Origin: an uncultured Gammaproteobacteria bacterium | GTDB lineage: Bacteria > Patescibacteriota > Microgenomatia > UBA8517 | Direction of reading: 5' to 3' | NCBI GenBank assembly: GCA_964599625.1 | Contig: CAZRGC010000001.1 | Span: 244,959 to 308,958, forward strand | DNA length: 64,000 nucleotides | Part shown: positions 9,681 through 45,150 of the stretch, piece by piece | How positions within the stretch are numbered: position 1 is the stretch's first letter | Layout: each line of letters starts with the position of its first letter | Made by a program: the position numbers and the translations under genes | Notes under the pieces: generated by a model | Told to the model about the DNA's origin: nothing | The model's input: only the letters and a program-made list of their open reading frames with translations | Databases searched by the model: none

Positions 9681-10220
9681 CTAATCAATGTCCAAGAGGA
9701 ACCCAAAAAGATTGTATTGGCCAACATACTCGCCAATCAAACTGTAGCTTTGGAATTCTTCTGGGTCAGATGGTTCCCACATGTATGCGTAGCCACTTGA
9801 GTCAACGAAGTATATAACCATGTAGAGAGTCTCGCTCCCCTCCACGATTTTTTCGTTTTCTGCAAGTACAGGCATGGGTGTGGTTGGGAGTTGATTGTAA
9901 CCGTAGGTTGAAACCTGTCGGACAAACTCCGTGTACGTTGTTGTAAACGTAAACCACTGATATGGATTACCAAGGCAATCATCTTCGCGTGTGGGGCATG
10001 TGGTGCGGTCCGTTTTGGTCTCCATCCCGGTGGGAAGAGAACCTGTAGGGATCTTTCTGCCCTGGCCTGTAAAGTCGTGTGACGCGGCCACGTCGGCAGT
10101 CATGCGCCAAAAGTACCCCTGAACCTTCATTGACCTGCGCTCGACAGGATAATAAGCTACCCCGAGCACAAAAATGGTCAATATAGTGATTGTTATAAGC
10201 AATCCTTTGTGGTTACTCAT
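9681..10220 (-). CDS. Small membrane-anchored protein, paralog family member 3 (179 aa)
   Basis: TM helix LLITITILTIFVLGVAYY. C-terminal motif IYFVDSSGYAYMWEPSDP. GAGAGG RBS upstream. Confidence 0.6.
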   Translation of the reverse strand: MSNHKGLLITITILTIFVLGVAYYPVERRSMKVQGYFWRMTADVAASHDFTGQGRKIPTGSLPTGMETKTDRTTCPTREDDCLGNPYQWFTFTTTYTEFVRQVSTYGYNQLPTTPMPVLAENEKIVEGSETLYMVIYFVDSSGYAYMWEPSDPEEFQSYSLIGEYVGQYNLFGFLLDID

Positions 10221-10312
10221 CTGAACCTCTCTTGAACAATGTTAATAAGTGCAATACGGAATACCTATAGTAACACAACCGAGGCTAAAAGTCAAGTATT
10301 ATGGGATACCGA

Positions 10313-12568
10313 TTACCTTCTGTAGTCGTCTTTCAAGCAGTCTTCCACTGGGGTCTTGCTTTGGAATTCAATCGTTTTGGACTTAGTTCCAAAACCTGAC
10401 AAATTGTACTCTTTGTATAATGTTCTGCCGTTTGATAAGAACTGGGCCACAATTACACTGGTTTTTGATTTGTCTGCAATTAGCCTGAACTTATATTTCC
10501 CGTCTTTTGGGTTAGTTATGGAGATCATTCCCTGTTCACTTTGGTAGGTTTTGCCGTATTTGTCGGTTATCCAAAAATTTCCAGATGATGCAACCACAAC
10601 AAGGGCGGATTTTGGATCGTGATATGGGGGATCAGGGATGCTGGGTGATCCTAAAAACTCAAGAATCGAAGAAATACCTTCGGTTGAAGCAACCAACCCT
10701 GAATGTGATTGGTTTATAACTTTATTGTCTGCATTGTCGATTTGAGCACTACTAACAAGAACCGCACCGTCTCCAGATGTTGTGTTAATTTCACCGACGG
10801 GTTTACCGTCTAGCCACAACCCCTTCTTAACATCAGATTTGGATGGATTAGTTACTCTAATTTTCTCTAAAGTTGGGAATCCTGATCCGGATAGAGTTCC
10901 AACCTTTACGTCCCAAAAAGGATAGCTAAAACTGGTTGGTAAGTAATTATTTTGGGCAATCATGGTATTTACCGGCTTTAGCGACCCATTTTTTTGAATA
11001 TAGTCAGTTGTCGGCAAAAGGTTTTGAATTGATTCAGGCACTCCACAGTGTTTCAAAAACAAAGTTTTGGAAATCCTATCAACTAAATCATTACCCCAAA
11101 CTTCGTGTCCGGAATAAAGTGGATAAGAAATCGCAGAACCTTTGTTTGGCGCACCTGCCATCAAAAGCTTTTTTGCCTTTCCACCTAATTCATTTTCAAC
11201 ATAAGCCCTGCCCAAAAGTCCGCCCATGCTGTGGCCAACTATGTTTACTTTTTCTGCGTTGGGCGCAACTGAATCAATGAATGTCGCCAGTTTTGGTTCA
11301 TTGTTTAATATCTTATCCCTCCAGTCAAAATAGAAAGGTATGGTGTTCCACCCAGCATTTTCTAGTGAAGTTGTAAGATCTGCATACACATCCTTTGCGT
11401 AAGGTGCCAATGTCCAGTTGCCAACATAACCTTCTTTTTTGCAGGAAATAAACGCGTCAAGATTCCAACTGGCACCAGTTCCGGGAATTAATACAACCTT
11501 ACTTGAAGTTACCGGTACAGGAGACGGACTTGGTGTTGGGGTTGGTGAGGGTGGTGTGTCAGGGGTATAACTCATTTTCCAAACATGGTTTGTGTAGTCA
11601 CCATTTGCAACACCGCCAATAAGATAAAGATTGTTTCCAGATGCAATAAGCTGCCCACAGCAGTTTGTCTCGGGTAATTGTGGTCCGTTTTGCCAAACAC
11701 CAATCGTTCCATCTGTGTTGATTTCTGAGTAATAAACATTTTGAGTTCCATCACCTGCGATCACTAATGTGTTTGCAACCCTTGCCAGTCCAAACCTCCA
11801 CATTCCCACAGGAAGATTTGTTAGGTTTTCCCATGTACCAATTGAACCATCAGGGTTTATTGGTGCTCTAATAACTTGGTTTGAATATCCAGAAGGTGTA
11901 AAACCACCAAAAACAACAAGATGGTTATTGATAACTATCATAGAATGACCTTCTGTTTTTTCTGGCAAATTTCCTGCTGTTCTCCATGCACCAATTGTTC
12001 CGTCTGGGTTAATGTCAGAGACGTAAACTGATGTGCTGGCAAGGTTTGGGTTGTTCGCCTGACTGGATAAGGTGTTTCCGCCAGAAAAGAAAATCATATT
12101 GTCTGATACAACACTGGCACCTAAAGAAAGTGTTTGTGGTAATGGTGTTAAGTTTGTCCAAGATGAAATGTTACTATTTTCAAGTAGACCTAGCCACACC
12201 TCACCTGTATTGTTGAAGGAAGTGTCTGCGCCACCGAGAAGATATACATAGTTGCCACTTGTTGCTCCACTCAACCAATATCTGTTTGGTGGTTGTGTAG
12301 CGTTTGTGTTCCAGGCGGACAATGTTCCCGAGACTGTGACTGTTGTATTGAATCCAGTGTTGGGAACAGTGTTGTTTGCACCCCCTAGGTTAAACAAGCT
12401 ATTATCATTTGAAAATGCAAAGTTACTTGCAATCTGTAGCGGCAGATTTTCTTCCTGGATCCAATTTGATAATCCACCAGTCGCAAAAACAAGTCCTGAA
12501 CCTAGTACAAAACAGACCAAAATTACTATCACCAGAGACAACGATCTAGTAAGATAATTTTTGCTCAC
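10313..12568 (-). CDS. Secreted Kelch-repeat beta-propeller protein fused via a Pro/Thr linker to an alpha/beta-hydrolase (lipase-like, GHSMGG) domain; GTG start
   Basis: Signal/TM at N-terminus. Repeated Kelch-like blades (YLLGGAD, MIFFSGGNT, HLVVFGGF, LYLIGGVANG). Linker TPDTPPSPTPTPSPSPVPV. C-terminal domain carries the nucleophile-elbow motif VNIVGHSMGGLLGRAY (GxSxG). Confidence 0.7.
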   Translation of the reverse strand: MSKNYLTRSLSLVIVILVCFVLGSGLVFATGGLSNWIQEENLPLQIASNFAFSNDNSLFNLGGANNTVPNTGFNTTVTVSGTLSAWNTNATQPPNRYWLSGATSGNYVYLLGGADTSFNNTGEVWLGLLENSNISSWTNLTPLPQTLSLGASVVSDNMIFFSGGNTLSSQANNPNLASTSVYVSDINPDGTIGAWRTAGNLPEKTEGHSMIVINNHLVVFGGFTPSGYSNQVIRAPINPDGSIGTWENLTNLPVGMWRFGLARVANTLVIAGDGTQNVYYSEINTDGTIGVWQNGPQLPETNCCGQLIASGNNLYLIGGVANGDYTNHVWKMSYTPDTPPSPTPTPSPSPVPVTSSKVVLIPGTGASWNLDAFISCKKEGYVGNWTLAPYAKDVYADLTTSLENAGWNTIPFYFDWRDKILNNEPKLATFIDSVAPNAEKVNIVGHSMGGLLGRAYVENELGGKAKKLLMAGAPNKGSAISYPLYSGHEVWGNDLVDRISKTLFLKHCGVPESIQNLLPTTDYIQKNGSLKPVNTMIAQNNYLPTSFSYPFWDVKVGTLSGSGFPTLEKIRVTNPSKSDVKKGLWLDGKPVGEINTTSGDGAVLVSSAQIDNADNKVINQSHSGLVASTEGISSILEFLGSPSIPDPPYHDPKSALVVVASSGNFWITDKYGKTYQSEQGMISITNPKDGKYKFRLIADKSKTSVIVAQFLSNGRTLYKEYNLSGFGTKSKTIEFQSKTPVEDCLKDDYRR

Positions 12569-24029: not shown

Positions 24030-24033
24030 TTTG

Positions 24034-24104
24034 AGCCGATGGGGGGAATCGAACCCTCGTCCGCGGTTTACGATACCGCTGCTTTACCACTAAGCTACAT
24101 CGGC
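24034..24104 (-). tRNA. tRNA-Thr (anticodon CGT)
   Basis: Reverse complement folds. Acceptor GCCGATG/CATCGGC, D-arm GCTT-AGTGGTA-AAGC, anticodon stem GCGGT/ACCGC with loop ATCGTAA, T-loop TTCGATT. One A-C mismatch in the T-stem. No encoded CCA. Confidence 0.75.
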
Positions 24105-28166: not shown

Positions 28167-29264
28167 ATGAAAAACACAATTCAGTGCCCATTTTGTAATA
28201 AAGAGTTTGAAGCCACTGATGCCCTTAAACATCAAATTGAGGAGCAGCTCAAAGAGTCATTGGATGTAAAACACAAACTGGATCTGGAACAGGCAAAAAA
28301 ACAGGCAGCAAGTGAAGCTTCTGCAAATATCACAAAAGATTTGGAAGCCGAACGCGAACGCTCAAAAAAGTTAACTTCGCAAATAGATGAACTTTTGGGA
28401 GAAGTGAGAAAACTAAGGGAAAAAGATGAAGAACGCGAGATAGAAATGAAAAAGCGATTATTGGAGGAGGAGGAAAAAATCAAAAAAGATGTCAGGCAGA
28501 AGTCCGAGGATGAGCACAAGCTTAAGGATTTGGAAAAAGACAAAAAACTTCAGGATGCTTTGGACCAAATAGAATCCTTAAAGACAAAAATCCAACAAGG
28601 CTCACAGCAAACTCAAGGTGAAACTTTGGAATTGGAAATGGAAACAAAATTGAGGTCCGAATTCCCAACTGATGTTATTACGGAGGTTAAAAAGGGTCAA
28701 AGGGGAGCGGACATCTCACAGGAGGTCATTGACAGAAACGGCAGAAACTGTGGAAAGATTTTGTGGGAAAGTAAAAATGCCCAGTGGAGCGAAGGTTGGC
28801 TGGACAAACTTAAGGAAGACCAGAGACAAGCAAAAGCAGACATTTCTGTGCTTGTAAGTGTCAACTTGCCCGAAGGAGTAGAAAGCTTTGTGTACAAAAA
28901 CGGCGTTTGGATTTGCGGTGTCAAATATTTTGTTGGTTTGGCTTTTGCTTTGCGATACAACTTGGTTAGTTTGCATAATGAGCGGATTTCAAGCGAAGGT
29001 AAGGATGAAAAAATGAAGATTTTATACTCATACCTTACCGGTTCTGAGTTTCGCAATAGGGTATCGGGAATTGTAGACGCATTTAGTAACCTGCAGGAAG
29101 AGTTGGAAAAAGAAAAACGGTATTTTAATGTTAAATGGGCAAAACAAGAAAAAGAAATCAGAAAAGTAATTGACCATACACACGGGATGTACGGCGACCT
29201 TCAGGCAGTAATTGGCAAGAGTTTACCCGAAATCAAGACCATGGAACTTGAGGGAGGTGACTAA
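28167..29264 (+). CDS. DUF2130-like protein: N-terminal zinc ribbon (CPFCNKEF), long Glu/Lys-rich coiled coil, conserved C-terminal domain
   Basis: Architecture and C-terminal block (GQRGADISQEV...NCGKILWESKN...WSEGWLDKLKEDQR) match the DUF2130 family as I recall it. Confidence 0.55.
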   Translation: MKNTIQCPFCNKEFEATDALKHQIEEQLKESLDVKHKLDLEQAKKQAASEASANITKDLEAERERSKKLTSQIDELLGEVRKLREKDEEREIEMKKRLLEEEEKIKKDVRQKSEDEHKLKDLEKDKKLQDALDQIESLKTKIQQGSQQTQGETLELEMETKLRSEFPTDVITEVKKGQRGADISQEVIDRNGRNCGKILWESKNAQWSEGWLDKLKEDQRQAKADISVLVSVNLPEGVESFVYKNGVWICGVKYFVGLAFALRYNLVSLHNERISSEGKDEKMKILYSYLTGSEFRNRVSGIVDAFSNLQEELEKEKRYFNVKWAKQEKEIRKVIDHTHGMYGDLQAVIGKSLPEIKTMELEGGD

Positions 29265-31361: not shown

Positions 31362-31390
31362 TTGACATTTAAGTAAATTAGAGTTAAAAA
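31362..31390 (+). promoter_or_regulatory. Sigma-70-like promoter: TTGACA (31362-31367), 17-nt spacer, TAAAAA, in an AT-rich 87-nt intergenic region
   Basis: Read directly. Lies 10-20 nt upstream of the GHKL gene start, implying a near-leaderless transcript. Confidence 0.35.
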
Positions 31391-31399
31391 TAGTTAATT

Positions 31400-33166
31400 G
31401 TGATTAATATGAGTAAATTAAATACAAAAATAATTTCAACTGAAGAAGCAGCAAAACTATTGGGTGTTACCAGACAAACGCTTTACAAACTTGCGGACAA
31501 GAAAGAAATTCGCGGGCGGAAAGTTGGCAGGAAGTATAAGTTCATGGAACAAGATGTTTTATCCTACGTGAGTACACATTTTGAAAAAGAAGATGACGGA
31601 TACAGGGAGTGGGAACTCAAGGGAGACTTTGCAACCGAGGGAATTAAAAAGATGGCTAAGCGAACTTTTCAAGAACTTGCCTCCAATATTGAAGAGCTTA
31701 TAGCAAACTCATATGACGCCGACGCTACCAATGTTAAAGTTGTTGTTAATAACGACAAACGAACTTTAAGCATTATTGACAACGGTCTTGGTATGGACGA
31801 GGAAGCCTTGACTTCGTTTGTCGTCTATGGGAAAAGTGATAAAGACTCCAGCTATCATTCACCTAAATTTAAGAGATCTCCAATTGGCGAGTATGGAATG
31901 GGTGGAAAACTAGCCATCACAAATATATGTCGCAAATGCAAGATAATTACTAGGAAAAATGGTCTTGAACATATCTTTAACATGAATAGGGCCGACTTGG
32001 ACAAAGCAAAGTATATTAGCGACCTAAAGAGTAAAGTCATAACAAAGCGGTGTGACCCCACATTTACCGGCACGGAAATATACATGGAAGACTTGTTTTC
32101 GAGAACAATTGACACCGATAGGCTTCAGGAACGTTTTTCTACCAAGATGCCGTTGAGTCAGAACTTTAAAATTGAACTTTTGTTGGTGGAAAATAACGAA
32201 AAAGTTGACTTAGAAATACGTGAGCCAATATTTGATTTCGAAAAAAAGTTCGATTTTGATGACGTTTTGCCCAAGGTTGGAAATGTAAAAATGACTATCT
32301 TTTTTACAAAGGAGCCTATACCCGCAACGAAACAAGGTGTTTGGACAAAAGTTAACGGAAGAATAGTGAATGAAAAAGCCGAATGGTTTGATCTTTTTAA
32401 AGCAACATCAGGTCATAGATATAGGTACAGACTTTTCGGCTATGGCGAAGCAGATGGGTTGAAAGATTATGTAACTTTTTCCAAGAACGATTTTATAGAT
32501 TGCCCAGAATACAATGAATATTGGGAGTTTGGCCACAAAAACATCGTTAAAGTTCAAAACGCATTATTAAAAGAAGACGAAAATGCCAAAAAAGAACACG
32601 ATCGAACAGTGGTGAAGACGGTTGAAAAGGTTGTTAATGAAATAATTTCAAAATTAGATGATCCCCAAACACTTGGCCAGTTGGAAGCACGCATTAAAAA
32701 AGAATTCACCAAGGAAAAAGAAAATGCACCAGAAAATCCTTACCCAAATATTGACGTGATCGAAAAGGAGGCCGAAAAGGTGGCGTCAAATGTAAAACGT
32801 GGAAAGGACAAAAGGGAGAGGAGAAACCAATCAATTGCACCAAGCGATAGAGCTTCGTATTCAGGTAAAAACTATATTATCGTTCCCGTAGACCTTTCTG
32901 AAAATGGTGATATTGTAAAGTTTACAAAAGACAAAAATCTCATTGAAATAAACGAACGCCACCCATTGTATACACGAGCTTCACGCAATAGTTCATTGGA
33001 GGACTTAATAATGAACCTTTCCTTTACCGAAATTGCATATGATTACAGTGATGGAAATTTTGTAAGTTTTGACACTGTATTTAATGAACTTGCAAGAATT
33101 GCATCAAAACATGCCAAGGTGAACGAAGTTTTTGAAATGCCGGCCGACATTCAAAATGAAATCTGA
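31400..33166 (+). CDS. HTH (excisionase/MerR-type) - GHKL (Bergerat-fold, MORC/Hsp90-like) ATPase protein, 588 aa
   Basis: N-terminal EAAKLLGVTRQTLYKLADKKEIRGRKVGRKYKF HTH. N-box ELIANSYDADA, G1 box IIDNGLGM, G2 box IGEYGMGGKLA. Long C-terminal region has a possible transducer-like domain and a Lys/Glu-rich segment. ATG at 31409 is the likely start; the track uses GTG at 31400. Confidence 0.7.
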   Translation: MINMSKLNTKIISTEEAAKLLGVTRQTLYKLADKKEIRGRKVGRKYKFMEQDVLSYVSTHFEKEDDGYREWELKGDFATEGIKKMAKRTFQELASNIEELIANSYDADATNVKVVVNNDKRTLSIIDNGLGMDEEALTSFVVYGKSDKDSSYHSPKFKRSPIGEYGMGGKLAITNICRKCKIITRKNGLEHIFNMNRADLDKAKYISDLKSKVITKRCDPTFTGTEIYMEDLFSRTIDTDRLQERFSTKMPLSQNFKIELLLVENNEKVDLEIREPIFDFEKKFDFDDVLPKVGNVKMTIFFTKEPIPATKQGVWTKVNGRIVNEKAEWFDLFKATSGHRYRYRLFGYGEADGLKDYVTFSKNDFIDCPEYNEYWEFGHKNIVKVQNALLKEDENAKKEHDRTVVKTVEKVVNEIISKLDDPQTLGQLEARIKKEFTKEKENAPENPYPNIDVIEKEAEKVASNVKRGKDKRERRNQSIAPSDRASYSGKNYIIVPVDLSENGDIVKFTKDKNLIEINERHPLYTRASRNSSLEDLIMNLSFTEIAYDYSDGNFVSFDTVFNELARIASKHAKVNEVFEMPADIQNEI

Positions 33167-33989
33167 AAACATAGTTAAAAAACGAAAAAAGTACCGATTT
33201 ATAAACAGAAAACATTATCAGCCATCCGAGGTTGACAAAGAAAGGATGCGGTTGGTTAAGCGCCTTTACGACGAATACGGGACACTTAGTAAGGTTGGTA
33301 GCTTGTTGAAACTTACGCGCGAACGAGTTAGGCAGCTTTTGAACAAGGGGGAAAAATACAAACTGTTTACATATGAGTTAACAAGGGATAGGGTTTTGGG
33401 TGAAGCTGTAAATAGAATAAGTAAGGAACGGTTGAGGGATCTGATTTTTACTACTAAAAACCAATTTGATATATCTTCAATCTTGGAAATAGATATGCAC
33501 CTCCTTCAAAGGTTGATGAAATATTACAATATTGACCTGGAGTCATATAAGCAGGATGCAAGGTATAAAAAATGTATTTCTCAGTATTCAGAGATGGTTA
33601 GTCAGATTGGTTATCATCCTTCAACAACGGTTATGCAAAGGAACAAAGAATGGAGAAAGATTTGGGTAAAAATCGATAGGTTATGGGGAAGCTTCGACAA
33701 CTTTAGGAGGGAATTCGGAATCCAAAAACCAAAACATAAGATGCACCCAAACACTATTGTGGCCTGGCGTTTGAGTAAAGAGAAAAGAATGGCAAAAAAG
33801 AAAGAAAAAGTTAGCAATGTTTATAAACTTGTTAAAAACTCTGGCCCAATAGGTTGTTTGAAGATATCCAAACAGACTGGTTACAGGAGACAAAACGTAA
33901 ACATATACTTGAATCAGTTAATTAGCTCAGGAGTAATCCAAAGGATCGGCGAAGGAGTGAAGACACTTTATATCCCTGTAAGCAATTAG
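33132..33989 (+). CDS. Putative DNA-binding regulator with sigma-70 region-4-like HTH and C-terminal winged helix
   Basis: TLSKVGSLLKLTRERVRQLL resembles the sigma region 4 HTH. C-terminal VYKLVKNSGPIGCLKISKQTGYRRQNVNIYLNQLISSGVIQRIGEG is MarR/ArsR-like wHTH. Start may be MKSENIV at 33156. Overlaps the GHKL gene's end. Confidence 0.5.
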   Translation: MKCRPTFKMKSENIVKKRKKYRFINRKHYQPSEVDKERMRLVKRLYDEYGTLSKVGSLLKLTRERVRQLLNKGEKYKLFTYELTRDRVLGEAVNRISKERLRDLIFTTKNQFDISSILEIDMHLLQRLMKYYNIDLESYKQDARYKKCISQYSEMVSQIGYHPSTTVMQRNKEWRKIWVKIDRLWGSFDNFRREFGIQKPKHKMHPNTIVAWRLSKEKRMAKKKEKVSNVYKLVKNSGPIGCLKISKQTGYRRQNVNIYLNQLISSGVIQRIGEGVKTLYIPVSN

Positions 33990-39122: not shown

Positions 39123-39587
39123 CTAAAACTTCCAACCTTCGTTTTTGAAGAAGTCAAATCGATTGAAACATTCAATTTTTTCCTGTTTACAAACAAATGG
39201 AATCTTCGTCTTTAATGAATTTTCTGAGTATCTCTCATCGCTAATCATGCTTAACTTATCGACTTTTGCAAGTGCAATCAAATAAGGGTCAGCTTGGTCA
39301 TTGGGATTGTTAACATCTACAAGATTAGGATATTTGTTAATTATCAATTTGGCTTCAACAACAATGTCAGGCTCTAATGTTTTTCGATATAGTGATTTAT
39401 ACTTTCCAACCCATTTTTTGAGCTGATCAACTTTCGCTGAGATTTCATCAACAACAGCATCACAAATGATTATTTTACCACTAATTATCGCTTCATCCAG
39501 CTTATTCCAAAAAGATGGAAAGTAGTCAAATGGAGTATTATTGGCACAGGTTATTAGAACACTAGAATCAATCAAATACTTTTTCAT
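39123..39587 (-). CDS. DUF4411-like PIN-fold protein (putative nuclease/toxin component)
   Basis: Starts MKKYLIDSSVLI with acidic residues spaced as in PIN-like domains. Overlaps the upstream ImmA gene stop by 4 nt (ATGA coupling). Confidence 0.6.
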   Translation of the reverse strand: MKKYLIDSSVLITCANNTPFDYFPSFWNKLDEAIISGKIIICDAVVDEISAKVDQLKKWVGKYKSLYRKTLEPDIVVEAKLIINKYPNLVDVNNPNDQADPYLIALAKVDKLSMISDERYSENSLKTKIPFVCKQEKIECFNRFDFFKNEGWKF

Positions 39588-40735
39588 AATCTAGCTTCCA
39601 GTTTGGTTAACGTTTCACTTTTTATACTTAAATAATCAAGTGCCTCGCTGTAGTCGATCCTATTAATTCTGTAGGCATCAAGTATGTTTTCGACAAAGGA
39701 CCTACTATTATTTTTCAAATATTTAATGTAAAAATTTCCACCCTTTGCTTTCGGTTTTTCTCTATAGTTATTTTTAAACTTATGATTATGTAGTTCAAAA
39801 ATGTCCTTATTTATTTTCTTATTAATGAGAAGTCTTCTAAGAACAACTTCTCTACTTACATTAAATACTTTCCCTAATACTTCTAAGTCCGTATCAAAGT
39901 TGCTGAAGTCTAAATCTAACGTCAGAAGTTTTTGATTCAAAATATTAGTTGGGACTAAAACAGAACCAGCTATATAATTGCAAGCAACTTCAACCCTGTC
40001 GTTAGATTGAAAATTGAGAACATTATTTTCGTCAGAAATTGCGTCCTTGCCGAAAATAAAATGTGCAAGTTCATGAATTAGCGTGAAGATTCTGGGATTC
40101 GGGTAGTCATTGGTGTTGAGGACAATAACAGGTGCGGCATCATCATAAATTGCGAAACCTTTAGCTTCAACTGTGGGGAATCCTAACTCAAGAATGTAAA
40201 TACCTTTAGCTTCAACTATCTTTTTCCAATAATTAAGTTGATCGAATGCACCTTTATTTCTCGTTACATCATCAAAATTTACCTCTAATAATTTAAGGAT
40301 CTTTTTACCGATTTCCTCATAACTGTTAACGTTGCTTAACTTTCGTAACTCATTAACAAATTTATTATCACCATCACCAAAGACGTCCTTAGCAATATTT
40401 TGAATTCTCACAGCCTTTCGTATCGCAAGTATGGTATCAGGGGTAAATTCACCACTGTGAAGATCAATTAACTTCCTAAATTTGGCAGGTATTTTTTCAG
40501 ATGGTTCTTTATCGAGTAAAAAAACTACAGAAGGTCGTTTATACACTTTTGCCAAAAGCCTTAGATTGGCTATCGGTACTTCTTCTTCACCATTTTCCCA
40601 AGCAAGTAATTTGTTGCTGTCGATTTTTAACTTTGTGGCCGCTTGTTGTTCAGTTAGGCCCAAGGTCTTCCTAGCCCATTTTAGTAGAACGGGATTGATT
40701 AACATCTCGCTAGTTGCACCCATTTTGTCCACCAT
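39584..40735 (-). CDS. XRE-family HTH fused to ImmA/IrrE-family zinc metallopeptidase (COG2856)
   Basis: N-terminal LLKWARKTLGLTEQQAATKLKIDSNKLLAWENGE is the HTH_XRE segment. The HExxH IHELAHFIFG sits in the ImmA/IrrE-like core. Confidence 0.8.
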   Translation of the reverse strand: MVDKMGATSEMLINPVLLKWARKTLGLTEQQAATKLKIDSNKLLAWENGEEEVPIANLRLLAKVYKRPSVVFLLDKEPSEKIPAKFRKLIDLHSGEFTPDTILAIRKAVRIQNIAKDVFGDGDNKFVNELRKLSNVNSYEEIGKKILKLLEVNFDDVTRNKGAFDQLNYWKKIVEAKGIYILELGFPTVEAKGFAIYDDAAPVIVLNTNDYPNPRIFTLIHELAHFIFGKDAISDENNVLNFQSNDRVEVACNYIAGSVLVPTNILNQKLLTLDLDFSNFDTDLEVLGKVFNVSREVVLRRLLINKKINKDIFELHNHKFKNNYREKPKAKGGNFYIKYLKNNSRSFVENILDAYRINRIDYSEALDYLSIKSETLTKLEARL

Positions 40736-40896: not shown

Positions 40897-40970
40897 TGGA
40901 GCGGGATACGGGAGTCGAACCCGTTTTTATACCTTGGGAAGGTATCGTTAGACCGTTTAACTAATCCCGC
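40897..40970 (-). tRNA. tRNA-Gly (anticodon CCC), CCA encoded
   Basis: Reverse complement GCGGGAT-TA-GTTA-AACGGTC-TAAC-G-ATACC-TTCCCAA-GGTAT-AAAA-ACGGG-TTCGACT-CCCGT-ATCCCGC-T-CCA folds as a canonical cloverleaf. Confidence 0.8.
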
Positions 40971-41037: not shown

Positions 41038-44000
41038 ATGGATGTTTTGGAAAAACCCTTGTTTATGAAGCGCGAAAGGGTGGTGATAGACTCCAAAGTC
41101 GAAGTTAAGTATCCCGAAAAAACCTGGTCTGTGGAGCAGTCGTATAGGGATATATATCAAAATCATTTAGACGCACAAGTGAAACGAAGTGTGGACGGAC
41201 TGTTGGCCGATGTTTCTGGTGCGGTTGACGGTGACACGGAAGCTGTGCTGCAAAACGACAGTCTAAGAAAAGTTGCCTACGAATATCTTGCCACAAAAGG
41301 CCACACACCAAGAGAGATGCGTGAGCAAATGGTTGATTTTCTTACCCAAAACATCACGGGTAAAACCAAGAGGGAACAATCTGAACTTGCAGAAATAGTT
41401 GAAAACCACAACATTCTTCTTCCTAAAGTCGAAGTCCTGGCAAGGGATGACCATGGAAACGAAAGCTGGATTGATAAAGATACTTTGGAATTGGACCCGC
41501 TTAGGGATTTGCGGATTATCGGGTTTAGGATAAGCGATGACGGCGAAGGATACGACGCAAACCTTAAAACAATTTTTTACTCATCCGGCAAGGATTCCCT
41601 TGACCAGGTGGGTAAATTCGGTGAAGGCGGAAAAATGAGCGAAATTCTTTTGCAGCAAAAAGGTTTCACAATAGAATCACGGTCTGCATATTCATATGAT
41701 GACAAAGAAGGGCATCATGACATGCTTTGGAAAGGGCGCCCCAGAGTGTCCAAAGAAGGCTCAATGGAACTTCATGTCACCCAGGTGGAACTATCGGCCC
41801 CGATTCCCAAAGGATCAGTTACGGAGGTTGTCTTTCGCGGTCCAGACATCGAAGATCAAGACGTAAAACAAATCACGGAATGTGTTAAATCTTTGGGGCA
41901 ACCTCAAATAATTTATGACAAACATAGGCGCGCGGGAGATTGGTTTTATTATTCCTCGTATGACCCTGCTAAGCCACTTGTTGGTGTGAGCAGGGATTAT
42001 GATGCCCTAATGGTTCAGGGAATTAGAGTAGTGCCCGTAAACACCGAAAGCAATTTACTTTTTGGTTATAGCACCTTTGACAAGAATGCTCTTAATGCAC
42101 GCGACAGGAATAAATACACCCCTGAATTTTTGGAATCGGTGAAAGACTTCTGGCTGCATGCGCCGCGGCACACTATTAAGTTGTATTTTGACGCAATGGA
42201 ACCAAAAAATGGTAAAAAGGTTTTTAATTCATTTGAGCAGGGAGTTTTTAAACACCTGCTGACAATGTACCCACCCGAGGATGGAGGAAGCCCTACACAT
42301 GCGGAACTTCAAAAATTCCGCAAGAGTGTTCTTGCAGAAGTTTTGGAAAGAACAAAAGGCAGTCATTTCAAAAGATTGTACTTTGCAACCGGAGATGAAA
42401 GACATGATTTTGGATTTTATCTGGATTCTAATGTTATTGTTGTAGATCCGCGCAGATGGGGTTTGGATTTTGAAGAAGATTTTTTGGCGGAGGAGCTGGG
42501 TAATCGGTTTGTATCCCGGGATGAACTCAGGAAAAATTTAAGAAGACACAAGGGGTGGGAAAATTCAGTTGAGTTGAGTGACGAAGAAAAGCTAAATGCA
42601 GAAGTCTGGTTTGACAATATAAAGGAGTTTGTCTTTTCGCAGATCGAAGGTAAAGATGATGAACTTTTTGGCGGCAGATTTGTTTTTGCCAAGTTTGTTA
42701 ACGGGGGAGACTTGGTTAGAGTTGAAAAAGAAGGCGGAGACGAACTGACAGATGACTACTACCATAACAACTCAGAAATGCTGGTAATAAATTGGGAATT
42801 GGCTAAAACTTTTCATGACCCGGAAGCATTGAAAAGATTGGTTGCAGTTTACATTATGGCCCAGGACGGATATCTGAATTCAAGCTTCCACTTTGGGGGA
42901 CCTCAGGAGACTGCCAACAAGTTTATTCAAAAAAGGTGGGAGGGTGTTGTTGATTACAAAAAAGCCGAAATAAATCATAGAGTAGACCCGGAAGAGTTTA
43001 TGCGGATGTTTGAGGCTTTGTGGTCCAGAGAAACTGATGAATCGGTTTTTGCGTTTAATACTTTCAGAAATCTGTCGGAGAGGGTTGTTGATACAGGTGA
43101 TATAGATGACGGACTTTTTCTCCTAAATGAACACAAGGATGTTGATCCAAGAATTATTGCAGTACTCACACAAAATGTATTTAGAACAAAAGATGGTTTT
43201 GCCCGGTATGTGGCGGAAGAAGGCTCGTACAAAGTCGAGCTTTTTGGGTTTGATGATATGCAGCTAATATCGGAAAAAGGCGGAAACAAAACTTACTACT
43301 ACAAAGATCATGTATTTATGGAACTTCCCGAATTTGATTATGTTAAGTATAAAAAAGATATTGTCTACAGACACGACAAAACACTTTACAGGTCGTCACC
43401 CGAAAATGTAATTGAATGGGAGGTTGAATCCAAAAAATATCTTAAATTTGGCGAAGGTTTTTGCTACGCAAGAGTTGGGCATATTAGTTTTGCACAGGAG
43501 CAAATTGACGATATTGTCGGAAATTTGAAAGTTGTTGACAGAAATAGCCAAACTTTAAAACAAACGGAACTTCTGGACGGGCATATTGACACTTCGGTTC
43601 CCCTTAAATACGGCAAAGGCAATTGGGATAAACCTGTAAGATTTTTTGAGGATGTTGTTCAAAATCATTTGAACGCGGGTAAGGTTGAAATCAGATTTCT
43701 ATTAGAGAGAAATGGCGAAAATGTTTGGGTTGAGGCGGCAGAGCTTTCTGATAGAGACTTGATTTTGGGCATAAAGTTTGAGGATGATGGACGGGGTTAT
43801 GCACCGGAAAGCCTGGAGAGGATGGGCAGGTCCGAAAAAGACAGTCCCTTGGACGAAGGTAAATATGGTGAGGGAACCAAAATGTTAATGGCTGCGGCAT
43901 GCAGAAATCAGATTGGTCTGGTTTTTGACTCTTATTGCGTCCGAAACGGAGAAAAAATAAGTTGGCAGGCAACAGCCGAAACGGGCACACGGCAGATTGT

Positions 44001-45150
44001 CGAAAAAGGCGGGGTGACAGATGTAAATATGGCAGGATTTGATTTGCAGTCAACTGGTGCAAACAAAAATACTTCTGCGACAACAATATATTTTAAAGAC
44101 TTAGAGTCCGATTTTTATAAAAAATGCATGGAAGTTGTGGATCCCAGGGCTGAAAACGGCGGGCTATCTAGATATGTAAGGACACTTGCCGGTGGAGTTG
44201 GAGTTTTGCATTCGGTAGGGCCTGTAAAAGTTTTGGCAGACGAAAAAGGCGATGTCTACGAAAACGGAATACTAATGAGTACAGAGTCAACTGCTTTGGG
44301 CAGTTTGGATGTTCCGGACATTTCGGCAAACAGGGAACGCGACACAATAAAACCGGAAAGATTGAAACAATATGTTGATTTTCTGATGTCACACACCGGT
44401 GATCCTGTTTTGGTTGAAAAGGTTCTAGAAAGGATTGTGAAAGGTGGTATTTATGATTACCAGGACATAAGTGATATTTTTAACAACATAGAAGGCACCC
44501 CGCTGAATATCGGTGTTTGGAAAGAAGTTGCGCACGAAAAGTTTGGTAATGTGATTATTTTCAATGGAATAATTGTTCCGGAGTCTAAAAGATATTTAGA
44601 GTACCACGGATACGACACAATAATTTACGCATCTGGCTCAAAGGGAAAGGAAAGGTTGGCAAAGGCATGTTTTCCGAGTGTCAAAGAGCTGATAAAAAGG
44701 AGTAAACTTGAACCTGTCATAATACCCGAACCAACAAGACAAAAAGTTGAGGCTGTTGTTGACACGCTTGCAGATAAAGTTTTGGAAATAATTGACCAAG
44801 GGGGATTGGCGGAGGCAACAAACAGACAGTTTGTGGCACTTCTTAGAGATAAAAATAGGCTGCATGAAACTATTGAATACTCCAAATTGGACCCGTTCAT
44901 TTTGGGTGAAGCCAAAGGCGAAATGAAGACTGTGATAAGCGAATACCTGCTTCACAATACACACGACTTAAACATGGTTCTTTTGCATGAGTGGGCACAT
45001 CATTTGAGCGGGGGAAGCGATCTGGAGCCAAAGTTTGTTGCAACACTTCTGGCGATAGGTTTGGGTATTAAACCAGTACCCGTAAATACGGCAAACCCGT
45101 CACCTGCAAAGAATTACAGACGTAGTAGAAGAAGGAAATCTAACAACTGA
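41038..45150 (+). CDS. Giant hypothetical protein (1370 aa) with two degenerate GHKL-ATPase-like modules and a C-terminal HExxH motif
   Basis: Module 1 has N-box-like DIYQNHLDAQ, then ISDDGEGYD and GKFGEGGKMSE. Module 2 has VVQNHLNAGK, then FEDDGRGYA and GKYGEGTKMLM. These match the order N-box, DxGxG, GxxGxG of Bergerat-fold ATPases. C-terminal LLHEWAHHLSGGSD. Confidence 0.6.
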   Translation: MDVLEKPLFMKRERVVIDSKVEVKYPEKTWSVEQSYRDIYQNHLDAQVKRSVDGLLADVSGAVDGDTEAVLQNDSLRKVAYEYLATKGHTPREMREQMVDFLTQNITGKTKREQSELAEIVENHNILLPKVEVLARDDHGNESWIDKDTLELDPLRDLRIIGFRISDDGEGYDANLKTIFYSSGKDSLDQVGKFGEGGKMSEILLQQKGFTIESRSAYSYDDKEGHHDMLWKGRPRVSKEGSMELHVTQVELSAPIPKGSVTEVVFRGPDIEDQDVKQITECVKSLGQPQIIYDKHRRAGDWFYYSSYDPAKPLVGVSRDYDALMVQGIRVVPVNTESNLLFGYSTFDKNALNARDRNKYTPEFLESVKDFWLHAPRHTIKLYFDAMEPKNGKKVFNSFEQGVFKHLLTMYPPEDGGSPTHAELQKFRKSVLAEVLERTKGSHFKRLYFATGDERHDFGFYLDSNVIVVDPRRWGLDFEEDFLAEELGNRFVSRDELRKNLRRHKGWENSVELSDEEKLNAEVWFDNIKEFVFSQIEGKDDELFGGRFVFAKFVNGGDLVRVEKEGGDELTDDYYHNNSEMLVINWELAKTFHDPEALKRLVAVYIMAQDGYLNSSFHFGGPQETANKFIQKRWEGVVDYKKAEINHRVDPEEFMRMFEALWSRETDESVFAFNTFRNLSERVVDTGDIDDGLFLLNEHKDVDPRIIAVLTQNVFRTKDGFARYVAEEGSYKVELFGFDDMQLISEKGGNKTYYYKDHVFMELPEFDYVKYKKDIVYRHDKTLYRSSPENVIEWEVESKKYLKFGEGFCYARVGHISFAQEQIDDIVGNLKVVDRNSQTLKQTELLDGHIDTSVPLKYGKGNWDKPVRFFEDVVQNHLNAGKVEIRFLLERNGENVWVEAAELSDRDLILGIKFEDDGRGYAPESLERMGRSEKDSPLDEGKYGEGTKMLMAAACRNQIGLVFDSYCVRNGEKISWQATAETGTRQIVEKGGVTDVNMAGFDLQSTGANKNTSATTIYFKDLESDFYKKCMEVVDPRAENGGLSRYVRTLAGGVGVLHSVGPVKVLADEKGDVYENGILMSTESTALGSLDVPDISANRERDTIKPERLKQYVDFLMSHTGDPVLVEKVLERIVKGGIYDYQDISDIFNNIEGTPLNIGVWKEVAHEKFGNVIIFNGIIVPESKRYLEYHGYDTIIYASGSKGKERLAKACFPSVKELIKRSKLEPVIIPEPTRQKVEAVVDTLADKVLEIIDQGGLAEATNRQFVALLRDKNRLHETIEYSKLDPFILGEAKGEMKTVISEYLLHNTHDLNMVLLHEWAHHLSGGSDLEPKFVATLLAIGLGIKPVPVNTANPSPAKNYRRSRRRKSNN

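What the first reader, a model, noticed from the sequence alone, without database searches (positions are those of the whole stretch)
31362..33989. HTH-GHKL (MORC/Hsp90-like) ATPase plus sigma-r4/winged-helix protein as a candidate two-gene conflict or regulatory system
A 588-aa protein combines an excisionase/MerR-type HTH with a complete Bergerat ATPase (N-box, G1 and G2 boxes intact). It is expressed from what looks like a strong TTGACA-17-TAAAAA promoter. It is followed, with overlap, by a protein carrying a sigma-region-4-like HTH and a MarR-like winged helix. GHKL ATPases with nucleic-acid-binding partners occur in prokaryotic MORC-type restriction/defence contexts. This pair sits in an island of hypothetical genes between tRNA-Thr and tRNA-Gly.
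Basis: partly seen in the sequence, partly recalled or inferred. Interest (0 to 1): 0.7.

Follow-up and report, generated by a model that had tools for sequence, protein, structure and literature searches.

The report
Self-regulated MORC-like ATPase and multi-HTH partner cassette
Two overlapping genes, a DNA-binding MORC-type ATPase and a fast-evolving protein built from DNA-binding helix-turn-helix modules, form an uncharacterised cassette that moves between bacterial phyla with its own promoter and phased operator repeats, and is most likely a nuclease-free system used in conflicts between genomes and mobile DNA.

Summary

The two genes are adjacent and co-oriented in 30 of 30 informative non-redundant loci, from CPR phyla, Omnitrophota, Margulisiibacteriota and Eubacteriales. 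No other neighbour is conserved. ORF1 is conserved (63% mean identity). ORF2 evolves fast (36%) and gains and loses HTH modules. A natural fusion of an ORF1-like protein to sigma-r4 plus DnaA-C HTH domains exists.

New here: the cassette carries a perfect TTGACA promoter in 22 of 29 loci (0.27 expected). It also carries 3-6 GTTAA direct repeats at exact 10-nt phasing over the -10 and start codon (z = 17).

The tRNA-bounded "island" is not supported.

I read it as an autoregulated, mobile MORC/paraMORC-class conflict module without nuclease, helicase or methylase. It belongs to no named defence system. Its function is inferred, not shown.

The parts
31362..31367 (+). -35 hexamer TTGACA of the cassette's own promoter
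   Evidence: Read directly from the sequence. A perfect TTGACA with a 16-18 nt spacer and TAnnn[TA] lies upstream of ORF1 in 22 of 29 loci, against 0.27 expected from shuffles.
31385..31390 (+). -10-like hexamer TAAAAA, 17 nt after the -35; it overlaps one GTTAA repeat
   Evidence: In the anchored alignment the consensus here is gTTAaaa.
31373..31417 (+). Five direct repeats (GTAAA, GTTAA, GTTAA, aTTAA, GTAAA) at exactly 10-nt phasing, starting at 31373, 31383, 31393, 31403 and 31413. They span the -10, the likely transcription start and the start codon. Putative operator array.
   Evidence: Across 28 upstream regions GTTAA occurs 55 times on the coding strand, 11 times on the reverse strand, and 7.6 times in shuffles (z = 17). 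42 successive spacings are exactly 10 nt. At least 3 GTTA per 100 nt are seen in 61% of these regions against 1.2% of 4120 background windows. The repeat finder D1 shows copies 40 nt apart. The repeat type tracks the ORF1 recognition helix.
31409..33166 (+). ORF1: HTH-GHKL-S5-coiled coil-CTD protein (585 aa from ATG 31409; an alternative GTG start at 31400 gives 588 aa)
   Evidence: About 108 full-length homologues share 45-99% identity.
31430..31579 (+). ORF1 N-terminal Xis/BldC/MerR-type winged HTH (aa 11-60)
31601..32098 (+). ORF1 GHKL (Bergerat) ATPase domain (aa ~68-233)
   Evidence: HATPase_c_3 E 9e-21. Invariant E99, N103, D106, D127, G129, G131 and G163-K170. PDB sequence hits: MORC3 E 2e-7, then MORC2 and MutL.
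32114..32473 (+). ORF1 S5-fold transducer-like domain (aa ~239-358) with the invariant stretch Q312-G-x-W-T-K-x-N-G-R321-x-V-N-E-K326
32504..32851 (+). ORF1 long helical / coiled-coil segment (aa ~369-484)
   Evidence: The AF2 model has helices 366-416, 419-439, 448-463 and 465-474.
32876..33154 (+). ORF1 conserved C-terminal alpha/beta domain (aa ~493-585) with signature E516-[IV]-N518-[ED]-x-H521-P-x-[LF]Y524
33156..33989 (+). ORF2: multi-HTH partner (277 aa from ATG 33156; overlaps ORF1 by 11 nt)
   Evidence: A homologue lies immediately downstream of ORF1 on the same strand in 30 of 30 informative loci.
33240..33350 (+). ORF2 sigma-70 region-4-like HTH (invariant L-T-R-E-R-V-R-Q)
   Evidence: Sigma70_r4 at 24.0 bits in the window and 26-35 bits in homologues. 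Invariant R55, E56, R57, R59 and Q60.
33615..33722 (+). ORF2 conserved middle helical module (G-H-x-P-S-T-T-E ... R-L-W-G-S-x-x-x-F-R-x-E-F-G-I)
   Evidence: Invariant G152, T158, W177 and F183, with nearly invariant H154 and P155. It is all-helical in the model. It matches no Pfam family.
33819..33983 (+). ORF2 C-terminal winged helix (MarR/ArsR/TrmB-like)

Best explanation
This is a self-contained, autoregulated two-gene operon that spreads horizontally. It most likely serves in genetic conflict, either defending a host against invading DNA or defending a mobile element against competitors.

Shown:
- ORF1 is a MORC/MutL-class GHKL+S5 ATPase with intact catalytic motifs. It is preceded by a Xis/BldC-type HTH and followed by a long coiled coil and a conserved C-terminal domain.
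- ORF2 is a chain of helix-turn-helix modules (sigma-region-4-like HTH, a helical middle module, winged helix). The number and type of these modules vary between loci.
- The two genes are always adjacent.
- The cassette carries a consensus -35 promoter plus 10-nt-phased GTTAA direct repeats over the -10 and start codon.

Inferred mechanism:
1. ORF1 molecules bind head-to-tail on the phased repeats through the BldC/Xis-like HTH and repress their own promoter. ORF2's sigma-4-like HTH may instead, or additionally, occupy the TTGACA. This keeps expression low and makes the cassette portable between hosts.
2. ORF1 dimerises constitutively through its coiled coil and C-terminal domain, and transiently through ATP-bound GHKL heads, as MORC and MutL do. 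This forms an ATP-gated clamp on DNA.
3. ORF2, the fast-evolving subunit, provides target recognition or sensing.
4. The clamp obstructs, compacts or silences the bound DNA, or it activates the conserved C-terminal domain or, in some loci, an appended third gene (a trypsin-like protease or a RuvB-like AAA+ protein). It does not cut DNA, because no nuclease, helicase or methylase is associated with the pair.
For: - Strict pairing: 30 of 30 informative non-redundant loci, with gaps of -51 to +57 nt.
- Fusion: an ORF1-like protein fused to Sigma70_r4 and Bac_DnaA_C HTH domains, with no separate partner gene.
- Engine versus specificity: ORF1 averages 63% identity and ORF2 36%, and the two are correlated (Spearman rho 0.68). 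ORF2 has variable RNA_pol_A_CTD or HTH_23 N-termini and 1-4 C-terminal wHTH domains.
- Mobility: 60-80% identity across CPR phyla, Omnitrophota, Margulisiibacteriota and Eubacteriales. Neighbours are not conserved. Serine or tyrosine recombinases lie within 10 kb in at least 7 of 30 loci. The pair is also found inside two ~99-kb contigs of short unidirectional ORFs. It sits as a bare 2-gene insert between comM and ruvB in a Levybacteria chromosome.
- Variable third gene: non-homologous Trypsin_2 proteases follow the pair directly in two loci and hit PADLOC protease effectors RT-Protease_XI, PDC-S45 and LmuA.
- Cis-element: promoter in 22 of 29 loci against 0.27 expected; GTTAA repeats at z = 17, 42 spacings of exactly 10 nt, strand-specific; repeat type co-varies with the ORF1 recognition helix.
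- Precedent: BldC-type domains bind variable numbers of direct repeats head-to-tail (PMC5859096). MORC/paraMORC GHKL+S5 proteins were assigned to conflict systems from gene context (PMC2292703).
Against: - No experiment exists. PADLOC recognises no system here: the best hits are generic GHKL matches to 'REase_II', and MzaB scores only 14.8 bits.
- No recognisable effector is conserved. The C-terminal domain lacks the zincin HExxH motif.
- Known defence genes are not obviously enriched around the pair in the ~14 annotated neighbourhoods read.
- In the window's lineage the pair sits in a syntenic chromosomal neighbourhood and looks vertically inherited.
- Proximity to recombinases and the Xis-type HTH fit a role in mobile-element biology equally well.
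- Which protein binds the repeats is not known.
- Dimerisation and clamping are extrapolated from MORC and MutL.
Confidence: 0.45

Rival explanations
1. This is a mobile-element housekeeping module, not defence. The pair would control excision, integration, transfer or gene expression of integrative elements and phage-like elements. ORF1 would act as an ATP-driven architectural factor or recombination-directionality-like factor that assembles on phased repeats. ORF2 would be the element's transcription factor.
For: - The N-terminal domain belongs to the excisionase family (TIGR01764, 51 bits) and resembles RdfS and Pukovnik Xis.
- Large serine recombinases with a small HTH_17 gene sit divergently upstream in four independent loci.
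- Tyrosine integrases or Xis genes lie nearby in L051 and L054.
- The pair is embedded in the ~99-kb elements L050 and L052.
- RdfS-type proteins bind both attP and their own promoter (PMC11963761).
Against: - About three quarters of the loci have no recombinase within 10 kb. These include the window, the comM-ruvB insertion, and L049, L053 and L055. Both genes and all catalytic residues are nevertheless intact in those loci.
- The recombinase type varies (serine or tyrosine), as expected for cargo rather than a cognate partner.
- In the small serine-recombinase elements a separate small HTH_17 gene already occupies the RDF position.
- GTTAA arrays were found only at the cassette's own promoter. 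The window has no array at a plausible att site.
Confidence: 0.25
2. This is a host nucleoid or transcription regulator. In this reading a bacterial MORC-like chromatin ATPase and a DNA-binding partner organise or silence regions of the resident chromosome in small-genome CPR bacteria.
For: - In the window's lineage the pair lies in a conserved chromosomal neighbourhood next to ordinary genes.
- The fusion variant lies between the rpoA/ribosomal-protein cluster and hrcA-grpE-dnaK.
- Eukaryotic MORCs are chromatin compaction and silencing ATPases (established knowledge; PMC2292703 discusses the link).
Against: - The distribution is patchy, with 60-80% identity across different phyla, which indicates lateral transfer rather than a lineage-wide housekeeping role.
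- Only 8 of 185,579 species-representative genomes matched.
- Neighbours are not conserved.
- There is a pseudogenised copy in L037.
Confidence: 0.1
3. This is an ATP-dependent restriction enzyme of the BbrUII/HgiDII type, or a paraMORC3/5-like GHKL-nuclease. In this reading the ORF1 C-terminal domain is a cryptic nuclease and ORF2 is its specificity or control (C-protein-like) subunit.
For: - The best NCBIfam hit is the BbrUII/HgiDII family restriction enzyme (E 2.5e-23). The best PADLOC hits are REase_II models.
- The C-terminal domain keeps invariant polar residues N518, H521, Y524, D548 and N562 in a beta-beta-alpha-like setting.
- A DUF2130 gene carrying a D...ExK-like motif lies within 0.2-3 kb in four loci.
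- Autoregulated promoters with operators are typical of R-M control systems (established knowledge).
Against: - The restriction-enzyme match covers only profile positions 21-209 of 659, which is the GHKL domain, at 82 bits against a cutoff of 550.
- No methyltransferase is adjacent in any locus.
- The DUF2130 association is confined largely to one lineage's synteny.
Confidence: 0.07

Closest known systems
Prokaryotic MORC / paraMORC GHKL+S5 ATPases of restriction-modification-like systems (Iyer, Abhiman and Aravind 2008, PMC2292703)
   Same: - An N-terminal GHKL domain with all ATP-binding motifs, followed by an S5-fold transducer.
- A family-specific C-terminal extension.
- A sporadic, laterally transferred distribution.
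- A predicted role of manipulating DNA in genetic conflicts.
- The best structural matches are MORC3, MORC2 and MutL.
   Different: - It carries an N-terminal Xis/BldC-type HTH and a long coiled coil.
- Its obligate partner is a multi-HTH protein.
- It has its own promoter and operator array.
- The C-terminal extension is none of the described ones (RE nuclease, TIR, HxH).
Mza five-gene defence system (PADLOC; NCBIfam MzaA = sigma-70-family protein, MzaB = GHKL ATPase)
   Same: It combines a sigma-70-related HTH protein with a MutL/MORC-like GHKL ATPase in one locus.
   Different: - Mza has five genes and this cassette has two.
- ORF1 scores 14.8-20 bits on the MzaB models against an NCBIfam cutoff of 850.
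- ORF2 has no MzaA hit.
- ORF2 lacks sigma region 2.
- Gene order and domain content differ.
Eukaryotic MORC ATPases (MORC2/MORC3; PDB 5ix1, 5of9)
   Same: - A GHKL + S5 + coiled-coil layout combined with a nucleic-acid or chromatin-reading module.
   Different: - There is no CW zinc finger. The reader module here is a Xis-type HTH placed N-terminally.
- The S5 region has no detectable sequence similarity to MORC.
- The cassette is prokaryotic and operon-encoded, with a separate DNA-binding partner.
BbrUII/HgiDII-family type II restriction enzymes and GHKL-Shedu (VcSduA, PMC12137116)
   Same: An N-terminal HATPase_c_3-type GHKL domain is thought to gate a DNA-directed activity. These give the best NCBIfam and PADLOC hits.
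   Different: - The similarity stops after the GHKL domain.
- There is no PD-(D/E)xK/DUF4263 or other nuclease domain.
- There is no methyltransferase partner.
BldC / Xis / RdfS family of small MerR-like winged-HTH proteins (PMC5859096, PMC11963761)
   Same: The N-terminal domain has the same fold. The conserved phased direct repeats at the promoter are the kind of site these proteins bind head-to-tail as cooperative multimers.
   Different: Here the domain is fused to a ~530-residue ATPase rather than standing alone. Binding to the repeats has not been demonstrated.

Membership tests
GHKL (Bergerat-fold) ATPase superfamily | Motifs I-III: N-box ExxxNxxD, G1 box DxGxG, and a G2 glycine-rich lid | tested here: met
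   E99-x3-N103-x2-D106, D127-x-G129-x-G131 and G163-E-Y-G-M-G-G-K170 are invariant in 20 sequences and kept in 98. HATPase_c_3 scores 74.8 bits against a cutoff of 25.
MORC family sensu Iyer et al. 2008 | GHKL domain followed by an S5-fold transducer domain | tested here: met
   [not shown]
MORC family sensu Iyer et al. 2008 | MORC-specific GhXhhpXXRhl motif in the S5 domain | tested here: inconclusive
   [not shown]
MORC/paraMORC restriction-modification-type systems | Operon context with a superfamily-II helicase, a nuclease and/or a DNA methyltransferase | tested here: not met
   None of these is present next to the pair in ~14 annotated neighbourhoods. No conserved neighbour was found in 41 loci.
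paraMORC1-5 (specific family assignment) | Family-specific C-terminal extension: RE-fold nuclease (paraMORC3), TIR (paraMORC4), HxH domain (paraMORC5), or ExxxH in S5 (paraMORC2) | tested here: not met
   The C-terminal domain has the N-x-[DE]-H-P-x-Y signature on a zincin-like topology. No RE nuclease, TIR or HxH domain was detected. Profiles of the original families were not available, so assignment by homology could not be tested.
Mza defence system | MzaA-E gene set, with MzaB and MzaA model scores above threshold | tested here: not met
   MzaB scores 14.8 bits in PADLOC and 20.1 bits in NCBIfam (cutoff 850). ORF2 has no MzaA hit. There are no further conserved genes.
BbrUII/HgiDII family restriction enzyme (NF050001) | Full-length match above 550 bits, with a cognate methyltransferase | tested here: not met
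   The score is 82.5 bits and covers profile positions 21-209 of 659 only. No methyltransferase is adjacent.
Excisionase / BldC-type HTH (HTH_17, TIGR01764) | Domain model above threshold and a Xis/MerR-like winged-HTH fold | tested here: met
   [not shown]
Excisionase / BldC-type HTH | Binds phased direct repeats head-to-tail | not testable with these tools
   Suitable 10-nt-phased GTTAA repeats are conserved at the promoter and co-vary with the recognition helix. Binding itself needs EMSA or footprinting.
Sigma-70 family sigma factor (for ORF2) | Region 2 (core binding and -10 recognition) together with region 4 | tested here: not met
   Only region 4 is detected: 24.0 bits in the window and 26-35 bits in homologues. 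No Sigma70_r2 hit appears in any of 11 proteins scanned. ORF2 is therefore not a sigma factor.
Zincin metalloproteases (Wss1/SprT, minigluzincins) for the ORF1 C-terminal domain | HExxH zinc-binding and catalytic motif in the active-site helix | tested here: not met
   [not shown]

The most novel reading that the evidence does not exclude
The most novel reading is a prokaryotic, nuclease-free 'MORC silencing' immune system. ORF1 would be an ATP-gated DNA clamp. It would be loaded onto foreign DNA by a partner assembled from copies of the cell's own promoter- and origin-reading modules: sigma region 4, RNAP alpha-CTD, DnaA domain IV and winged helices. The clamp would occlude or compact promoters and origins of invading elements.

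Alternatively, those modules could act as decoys for phage takeover proteins that target sigma-4, alpha-CTD or DnaA, and so trigger the ATPase.

Either version would be a bacterial counterpart, and possible evolutionary relative, of MORC-mediated transposon silencing in eukaryotes.
Probability: 0.15. Interest if true: 0.85.

Novelty: new variant of a known kind. Interest (0 to 1): 0.62.

Why it matters
Bacterial MORC/paraMORC ATPases have been tied to restriction-like systems only through gene context, and always alongside nucleases, helicases or methylases. This cassette pairs a MORC-class engine with nothing but DNA-binding modules, and it is conserved at 60-80% identity across distant, mostly uncultured phyla. 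It is therefore a compact (2.6 kb), clonable test case for a specific question: can a GHKL clamp restrain foreign DNA or regulate mobile elements without cutting DNA, as eukaryotic MORCs silence transposons?

The conserved consensus promoter and the 10-nt-phased GTTAA array give an immediate biochemical handle through EMSA, footprinting and reporter assays. The modular partner offers a natural series of specificity variants.

If the function turns out to be ordinary autoregulated mobile-element housekeeping, the finding still defines an uncharacterised, widespread protein family and its cis-element.

Tried and rejected
- IMG/VR viral contigs, annotated phage genomes and plasmids. No family member was found, only distant GHKL hits, one of them annotated 'ParaMORC3' in an E. 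coli phage. The cassette is not a recognised phage or plasmid gene.
- PADLOC on both proteins and on neighbours. No system-level match.
- C-terminal domain as an active zincin protease. Rejected: there is no HExxH anywhere in the superfamily.
- Sequence-level test of the MORC S5 motif. It returned only chance hits, so the test stays inconclusive.
- tRNA-bounded genomic island. No recombinase homologue in the window, no att-like direct repeats, and synteny with a related genome. Rejected.
- DUF2130 as a third component. It recurs near the pair in four loci, but three of these are closely related and syntenic, with variable distance and orientation. I treat it as a lineage neighbour, not a component.
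- The 78-aa gene in front of the fusion variant as a split-off HTH. It has no similarity to the ORF1 N-terminus.
- One literature query ('MzaA/MzaB') was wasted on journal-code matches. 'bacterial MORC' plus 'phage' found no paper.
- The single-site promoter scan in the window alone was not above chance. Only the comparative test was informative.


Full report
**1. The observation**

ORF1 runs from 31400 (GTG) or 31409 (ATG) to 33166 on the + strand. ORF2 runs from 33132 (TTG) or 33156 (ATG) to 33989. Gene callers on identical public contigs use ATG 31409 (585 aa) and ATG 33156 (277 aa), which gives an 11-nt overlap.

ORF1 matches HTH_17 (E 1e-11), the excisionase domain TIGR01764 (51 bits, cutoff 28.8) and HATPase_c_3 (E 9e-21). 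ORF2 matches Sigma70_r4 at 24.0 bits against a gathering score of 24.1, and a TrmB-type winged helix at E 8e-4. tRNA-Thr (24033-24104) and tRNA-Gly (40897-40970) are real. TTGACA, a 17-nt spacer and TAAAAA are present at 31362-31390.

**2. ORF1 is a conserved family with intact catalysis**

A database search found about 108 full-length relatives at 45-99% identity. Nearly all carry HTH_17 plus HATPase_c_3. Where named, their sources are Margulisiibacteriota, Omnitrophota, Peregrinibacteria, Pseudomonadota and a Planctomycetota MAG. Species-representative genomes add Amesbacteria, Levybacteria, Roizmanbacteria and Eubacteriales.

In alignments of 20 and 98 sequences the Bergerat motifs are invariant (588-aa numbering): E99-x3-N103-x2-D106, D127-x-G-x-G131 and G163-EYGMGG-K170. 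The C-terminal 350 residues are as well conserved as the ATPase.

**3. Structure of ORF1**

- Then SMCHD1, TRAP1, MLH1, ParE and Topo VI-B.

The aligned lengths cover GHKL plus the S5-fold transducer. By sequence alone the nearest solved proteins are also MORC3 and MORC2, followed by MutL.

The MORC-specific S5 motif of Iyer et al. is GhXhhpXXRhl. A candidate counterpart exists at G313-VWTKVNG-R321-IV. I could not confirm the correspondence, because the S5 region gives no sequence-level hit to any solved MORC.

**4. ORF2**

The family is smaller and more divergent, with 33 word-search hits. Its invariant core is L-Y-D-x-x-G-T-L-x-x-V-G-x-x-L-x-L-T-R-E-R-V-R-Q-L-L. This is a sigma region 4.2-type HTH. 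It is followed by a conserved helical module (G-H-x-P-S-T-T-E ... R-L-W-G-S-x-x-x-F-R-x-E-F-G-I) and a C-terminal winged helix.

Homologues in other loci score above threshold for Sigma70_r4 in 8 of 10 cases. They differ in what else they carry: an RNAP alpha-CTD-like or HTH_23 N-terminus, and between one and four C-terminal winged helices. No region 2 is ever present, so ORF2 is not a sigma factor.

**5. The pair is the unit**

I built HMMs of both families and searched six-frame ORFs of every fetched locus. Every locus with enough DNA after the ORF1 homologue has an ORF2 homologue immediately downstream on the same strand, with gaps of -51 to +57 nt. After removing duplicates, and including four loci added later, this is 30 of 30 informative loci. 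The loci without ORF2 all end within about 260 nt of the ORF1 stop, or inside ORF1.

All-against-all comparison of neighbours within 7 kb found no other universally conserved gene.

Across the same loci ORF1 averages 63% pairwise identity. ORF2 averages 36% over its shared core. The two track each other (Spearman 0.68), as expected for co-inherited partners of which one evolves fast.

An exhaustive profile search showed that the strict family sits within a wider superfamily. That superfamily has 36 representatives below E 1e-30 and 821 below 1e-10. Many members are about 500-aa proteins that lack the HTH but match from the GHKL domain through the C-terminal domain.

One member, P0184, is a natural fusion of such a protein to Sigma70_r4 and a DnaA C-terminal HTH. 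No separate ORF2-like gene follows it. This fusion independently supports a functional link between this ATPase and sigma-4-type DNA-binding modules.

**6. Context and mobility**

The annotated neighbourhoods differ widely:
- A bare two-gene insert between comM and ruvB-ruvA-ruvC in a Levybacteria chromosome.
- A position beside ABC-transporter and LysM genes in a relative of the window's organism.
- A divergent arrangement next to a large serine recombinase and a small HTH_17 gene in Omnitrophota and in three further loci.
- A tyrosine integrase nearby in Eubacteriales.
- An element carrying a primase, a resolvase, Xis and an integrase.
- Two ~99-kb contigs filled with short unidirectional ORFs, where a RuvB-like AAA+ gene follows the pair.

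In two serine-recombinase loci a Trypsin_2 protease follows directly. The two proteases are not detectably homologous to each other. Both hit defence-associated protease models: RT-Protease_XI, PDC-S45 and LmuA.

Recombinases lie within 10 kb in at least 7 of 30 loci. No member was found in IMG/VR, in annotated phages or in plasmids. Only a generic GHKL+S5 PHROG of unknown function matched.

The window itself has no recombinase and no att-like repeat between the tRNAs. Its upstream genes (PMT_2, Wzy_C, Big_6, NAD_binding_1) are syntenic with the 80%-identical locus L049. The 'island between two tRNAs' is therefore not supported. In this lineage the cassette looks resident.

**7. A conserved cis-element**

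Taken alone, the window's promoter-like site is not above chance. Comparatively it is: a perfect TTGACA with a 16-18 nt spacer and TAnnn[TA] occurs within 150 nt upstream of ORF1 in 22 of 29 loci, against 0.27 expected from shuffles.

I anchored the upstream regions on that hexamer. This revealed 3-6 direct repeats of GTTAA (variants GTTAT, GTTAG, GTAAA) between the -35 and the start codon. The statistics are as follows:
- GTTAA occurs 55 times on the coding strand, 11 times on the other strand, and 7.6 times in shuffles (z = 17).
- 42 of the successive spacings are exactly 10 nt, with minor peaks at 20 and 30.
- At least three same-strand GTTA per 100 nt occur in 61% of these regions, against 1.2% of 4120 background windows.

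In the window the sites start at 31373, 31383, 31393, 31403 and 31413. They cover the -10, the likely transcription start and the ATG.

The repeat sequence follows the ORF1 recognition helix:
- Clades with [ST]RQTLYKL have GTTAA chains.
- The S[RK]PTLYKL clade has (G/A)TAAA chains.
- The two loci with a divergent HTH, embedded in the 99-kb elements, have none.

BldC, the closest structural relative of the N-terminal domain, binds variable numbers of direct repeats head-to-tail as a cooperative multimer (PMC5859096). RdfS binds its own promoter as an oligomer (PMC11963761). I infer that the array is an autoregulatory operator, most likely for the ORF1 HTH. ORF2's sigma-4-like HTH is a candidate reader of the conserved TTGACA. 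Neither binding has been shown.

**8. Most likely mechanism**

Shown:
- The domain architecture and the intact ATPase motifs.
- The obligate gene pairing.
- The asymmetric evolutionary rates.
- The portable promoter and operator.
- The lateral spread.

Inferred:
- ORF1 forms an ATP-gated dimeric clamp on DNA, by analogy with MORC and MutL. The coiled coil and C-terminal domain would hold the dimer together.
- ORF2 supplies target recognition or sensing.
- The outcome is obstruction, compaction or silencing of the bound DNA, or activation of the C-terminal domain or of an appended third gene.
- The outcome is not restriction, because no nuclease, helicase or methyltransferase is ever linked.

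I put 0.45 on this conflict-module reading. The main rival is a housekeeping or regulatory module of integrative elements (0.25). The Xis-type HTH and the recombinase neighbours favour it. The many recombinase-free but intact loci, and the presence of a separate small HTH_17 gene in the RDF position, weaken it. A host chromatin role (0.1) and a cryptic restriction enzyme (0.07) are less likely.

**9. Comparison with what is known**

The cassette works most like the MORC/paraMORC GHKL+S5 proteins that Iyer et al. placed in restriction-like systems (PMC2292703). It lacks their defining gene context and has a different C-terminal extension.

It recalls Mza, which also combines a sigma-70-like protein with a GHKL ATPase. 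It fails both Mza models, and Mza has five genes (PMC11551731).

Its similarity to the BbrUII/HgiDII enzymes and to GHKL-Shedu (PMC12137116) stops at the GHKL domain.

I found no paper or curated model describing this family. Sources call it 'excisionase family DNA binding protein' or 'ATP-binding protein'.

**10. Verdict**

This is a new variant of a known kind, with moderate to high interest (0.62). It is a compact, experimentally tractable MORC-like system with a clear cis-element. Its biological role still rests on inference.

Noticed in passing
window 39584-40735 (-), next to tRNA-Gly 40897-40970: This gene encodes an XRE-type HTH_3 fused to Peptidase_M78 (ImmA/IrrE-like), a typical prophage or mobile-element regulator. 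It lies directly beside the tRNA-Gly gene.
   Followed up: partly
window 41038-45150 (+): A 1370-aa ORF with no Pfam hit at E<=0.001 sits in a stretch of strong positive GC skew (0.22-0.27). A strain-variant contig (L042) carries different genes at the corresponding position: a 573-aa ORF, a SLFN_AlbA_2 gene and an ORF of more than 767 aa. This suggests a variable hotspot just beyond the tRNA.
   Followed up: partly
window 28167-29264 (+); also L001 5610-6755, L009 8763-9809, L022 7780-9018: A DUF2130 protein with an N-terminal C2H2-like zinc finger, a coiled coil and a D...ExK-like motif recurs within 0.2-3 kb of the pair in four loci. Three of the four loci are closely related, so this may be lineage synteny rather than a functional link.
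   Followed up: partly
L007/L047 9570-9878 (+) and 19800-20135 (+); L017 9640-9948 (+): Fragments of about 100 aa resembling a large serine recombinase lie on the opposite strand, about 1 kb from each full-length serine recombinase gene. One of them sits right upstream of the cassette. They could be remnants of nested insertions or of inverted duplications.
   Followed up: no
L037 9811-11417: The ORF1 homologue is split into two overlapping reading frames (9811-10701 and 10686-11417). This is either a frameshifted, probably pseudogenised copy or an assembly error.
   Followed up: no
L003 about 3465-3573 (upstream of ORF1 homologue, Peregrinibacteria): This locus lacks the TTGACA/GTTAA element. 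It has a different repeat structure instead (CCCTATTT CCCTATTT CCCC AAAATAGG AAAATAGG), which is an inverted pair of direct repeats. Its ORF2 homologue is the longest found, at 560 aa with four winged helices.
   Followed up: no
L050 and L052 (contigs of 99.6 and 98.6 kb): Both contigs are densely packed with short unidirectional ORFs that have almost no Pfam hits. They also carry an integrase, an HNH_3 gene, a MoxR-like AAA gene with DUF2201, and a RuvB-like AAA+ gene right after the pair. They are probably an unclassified phage or plasmid of uncultured bacteria.
   Followed up: partly
L056 6945-7501: The GHKL-sigma4-DnaA_C fusion gene is preceded by a DUF7718 plus DUF5647 gene pair and a 78-aa basic protein. 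The whole group is wedged between the rpoA/ribosomal-protein cluster and hrcA-grpE-dnaK.
   Followed up: no
window 40327-40349 (-): This is the only other run in the 64-kb window with three GTTA at 9-12 nt spacing (GTTACGAAAGTTAAGCAACGTTA). It lies inside the HTH_3-Peptidase_M78 gene and is probably a chance match.
   Followed up: no
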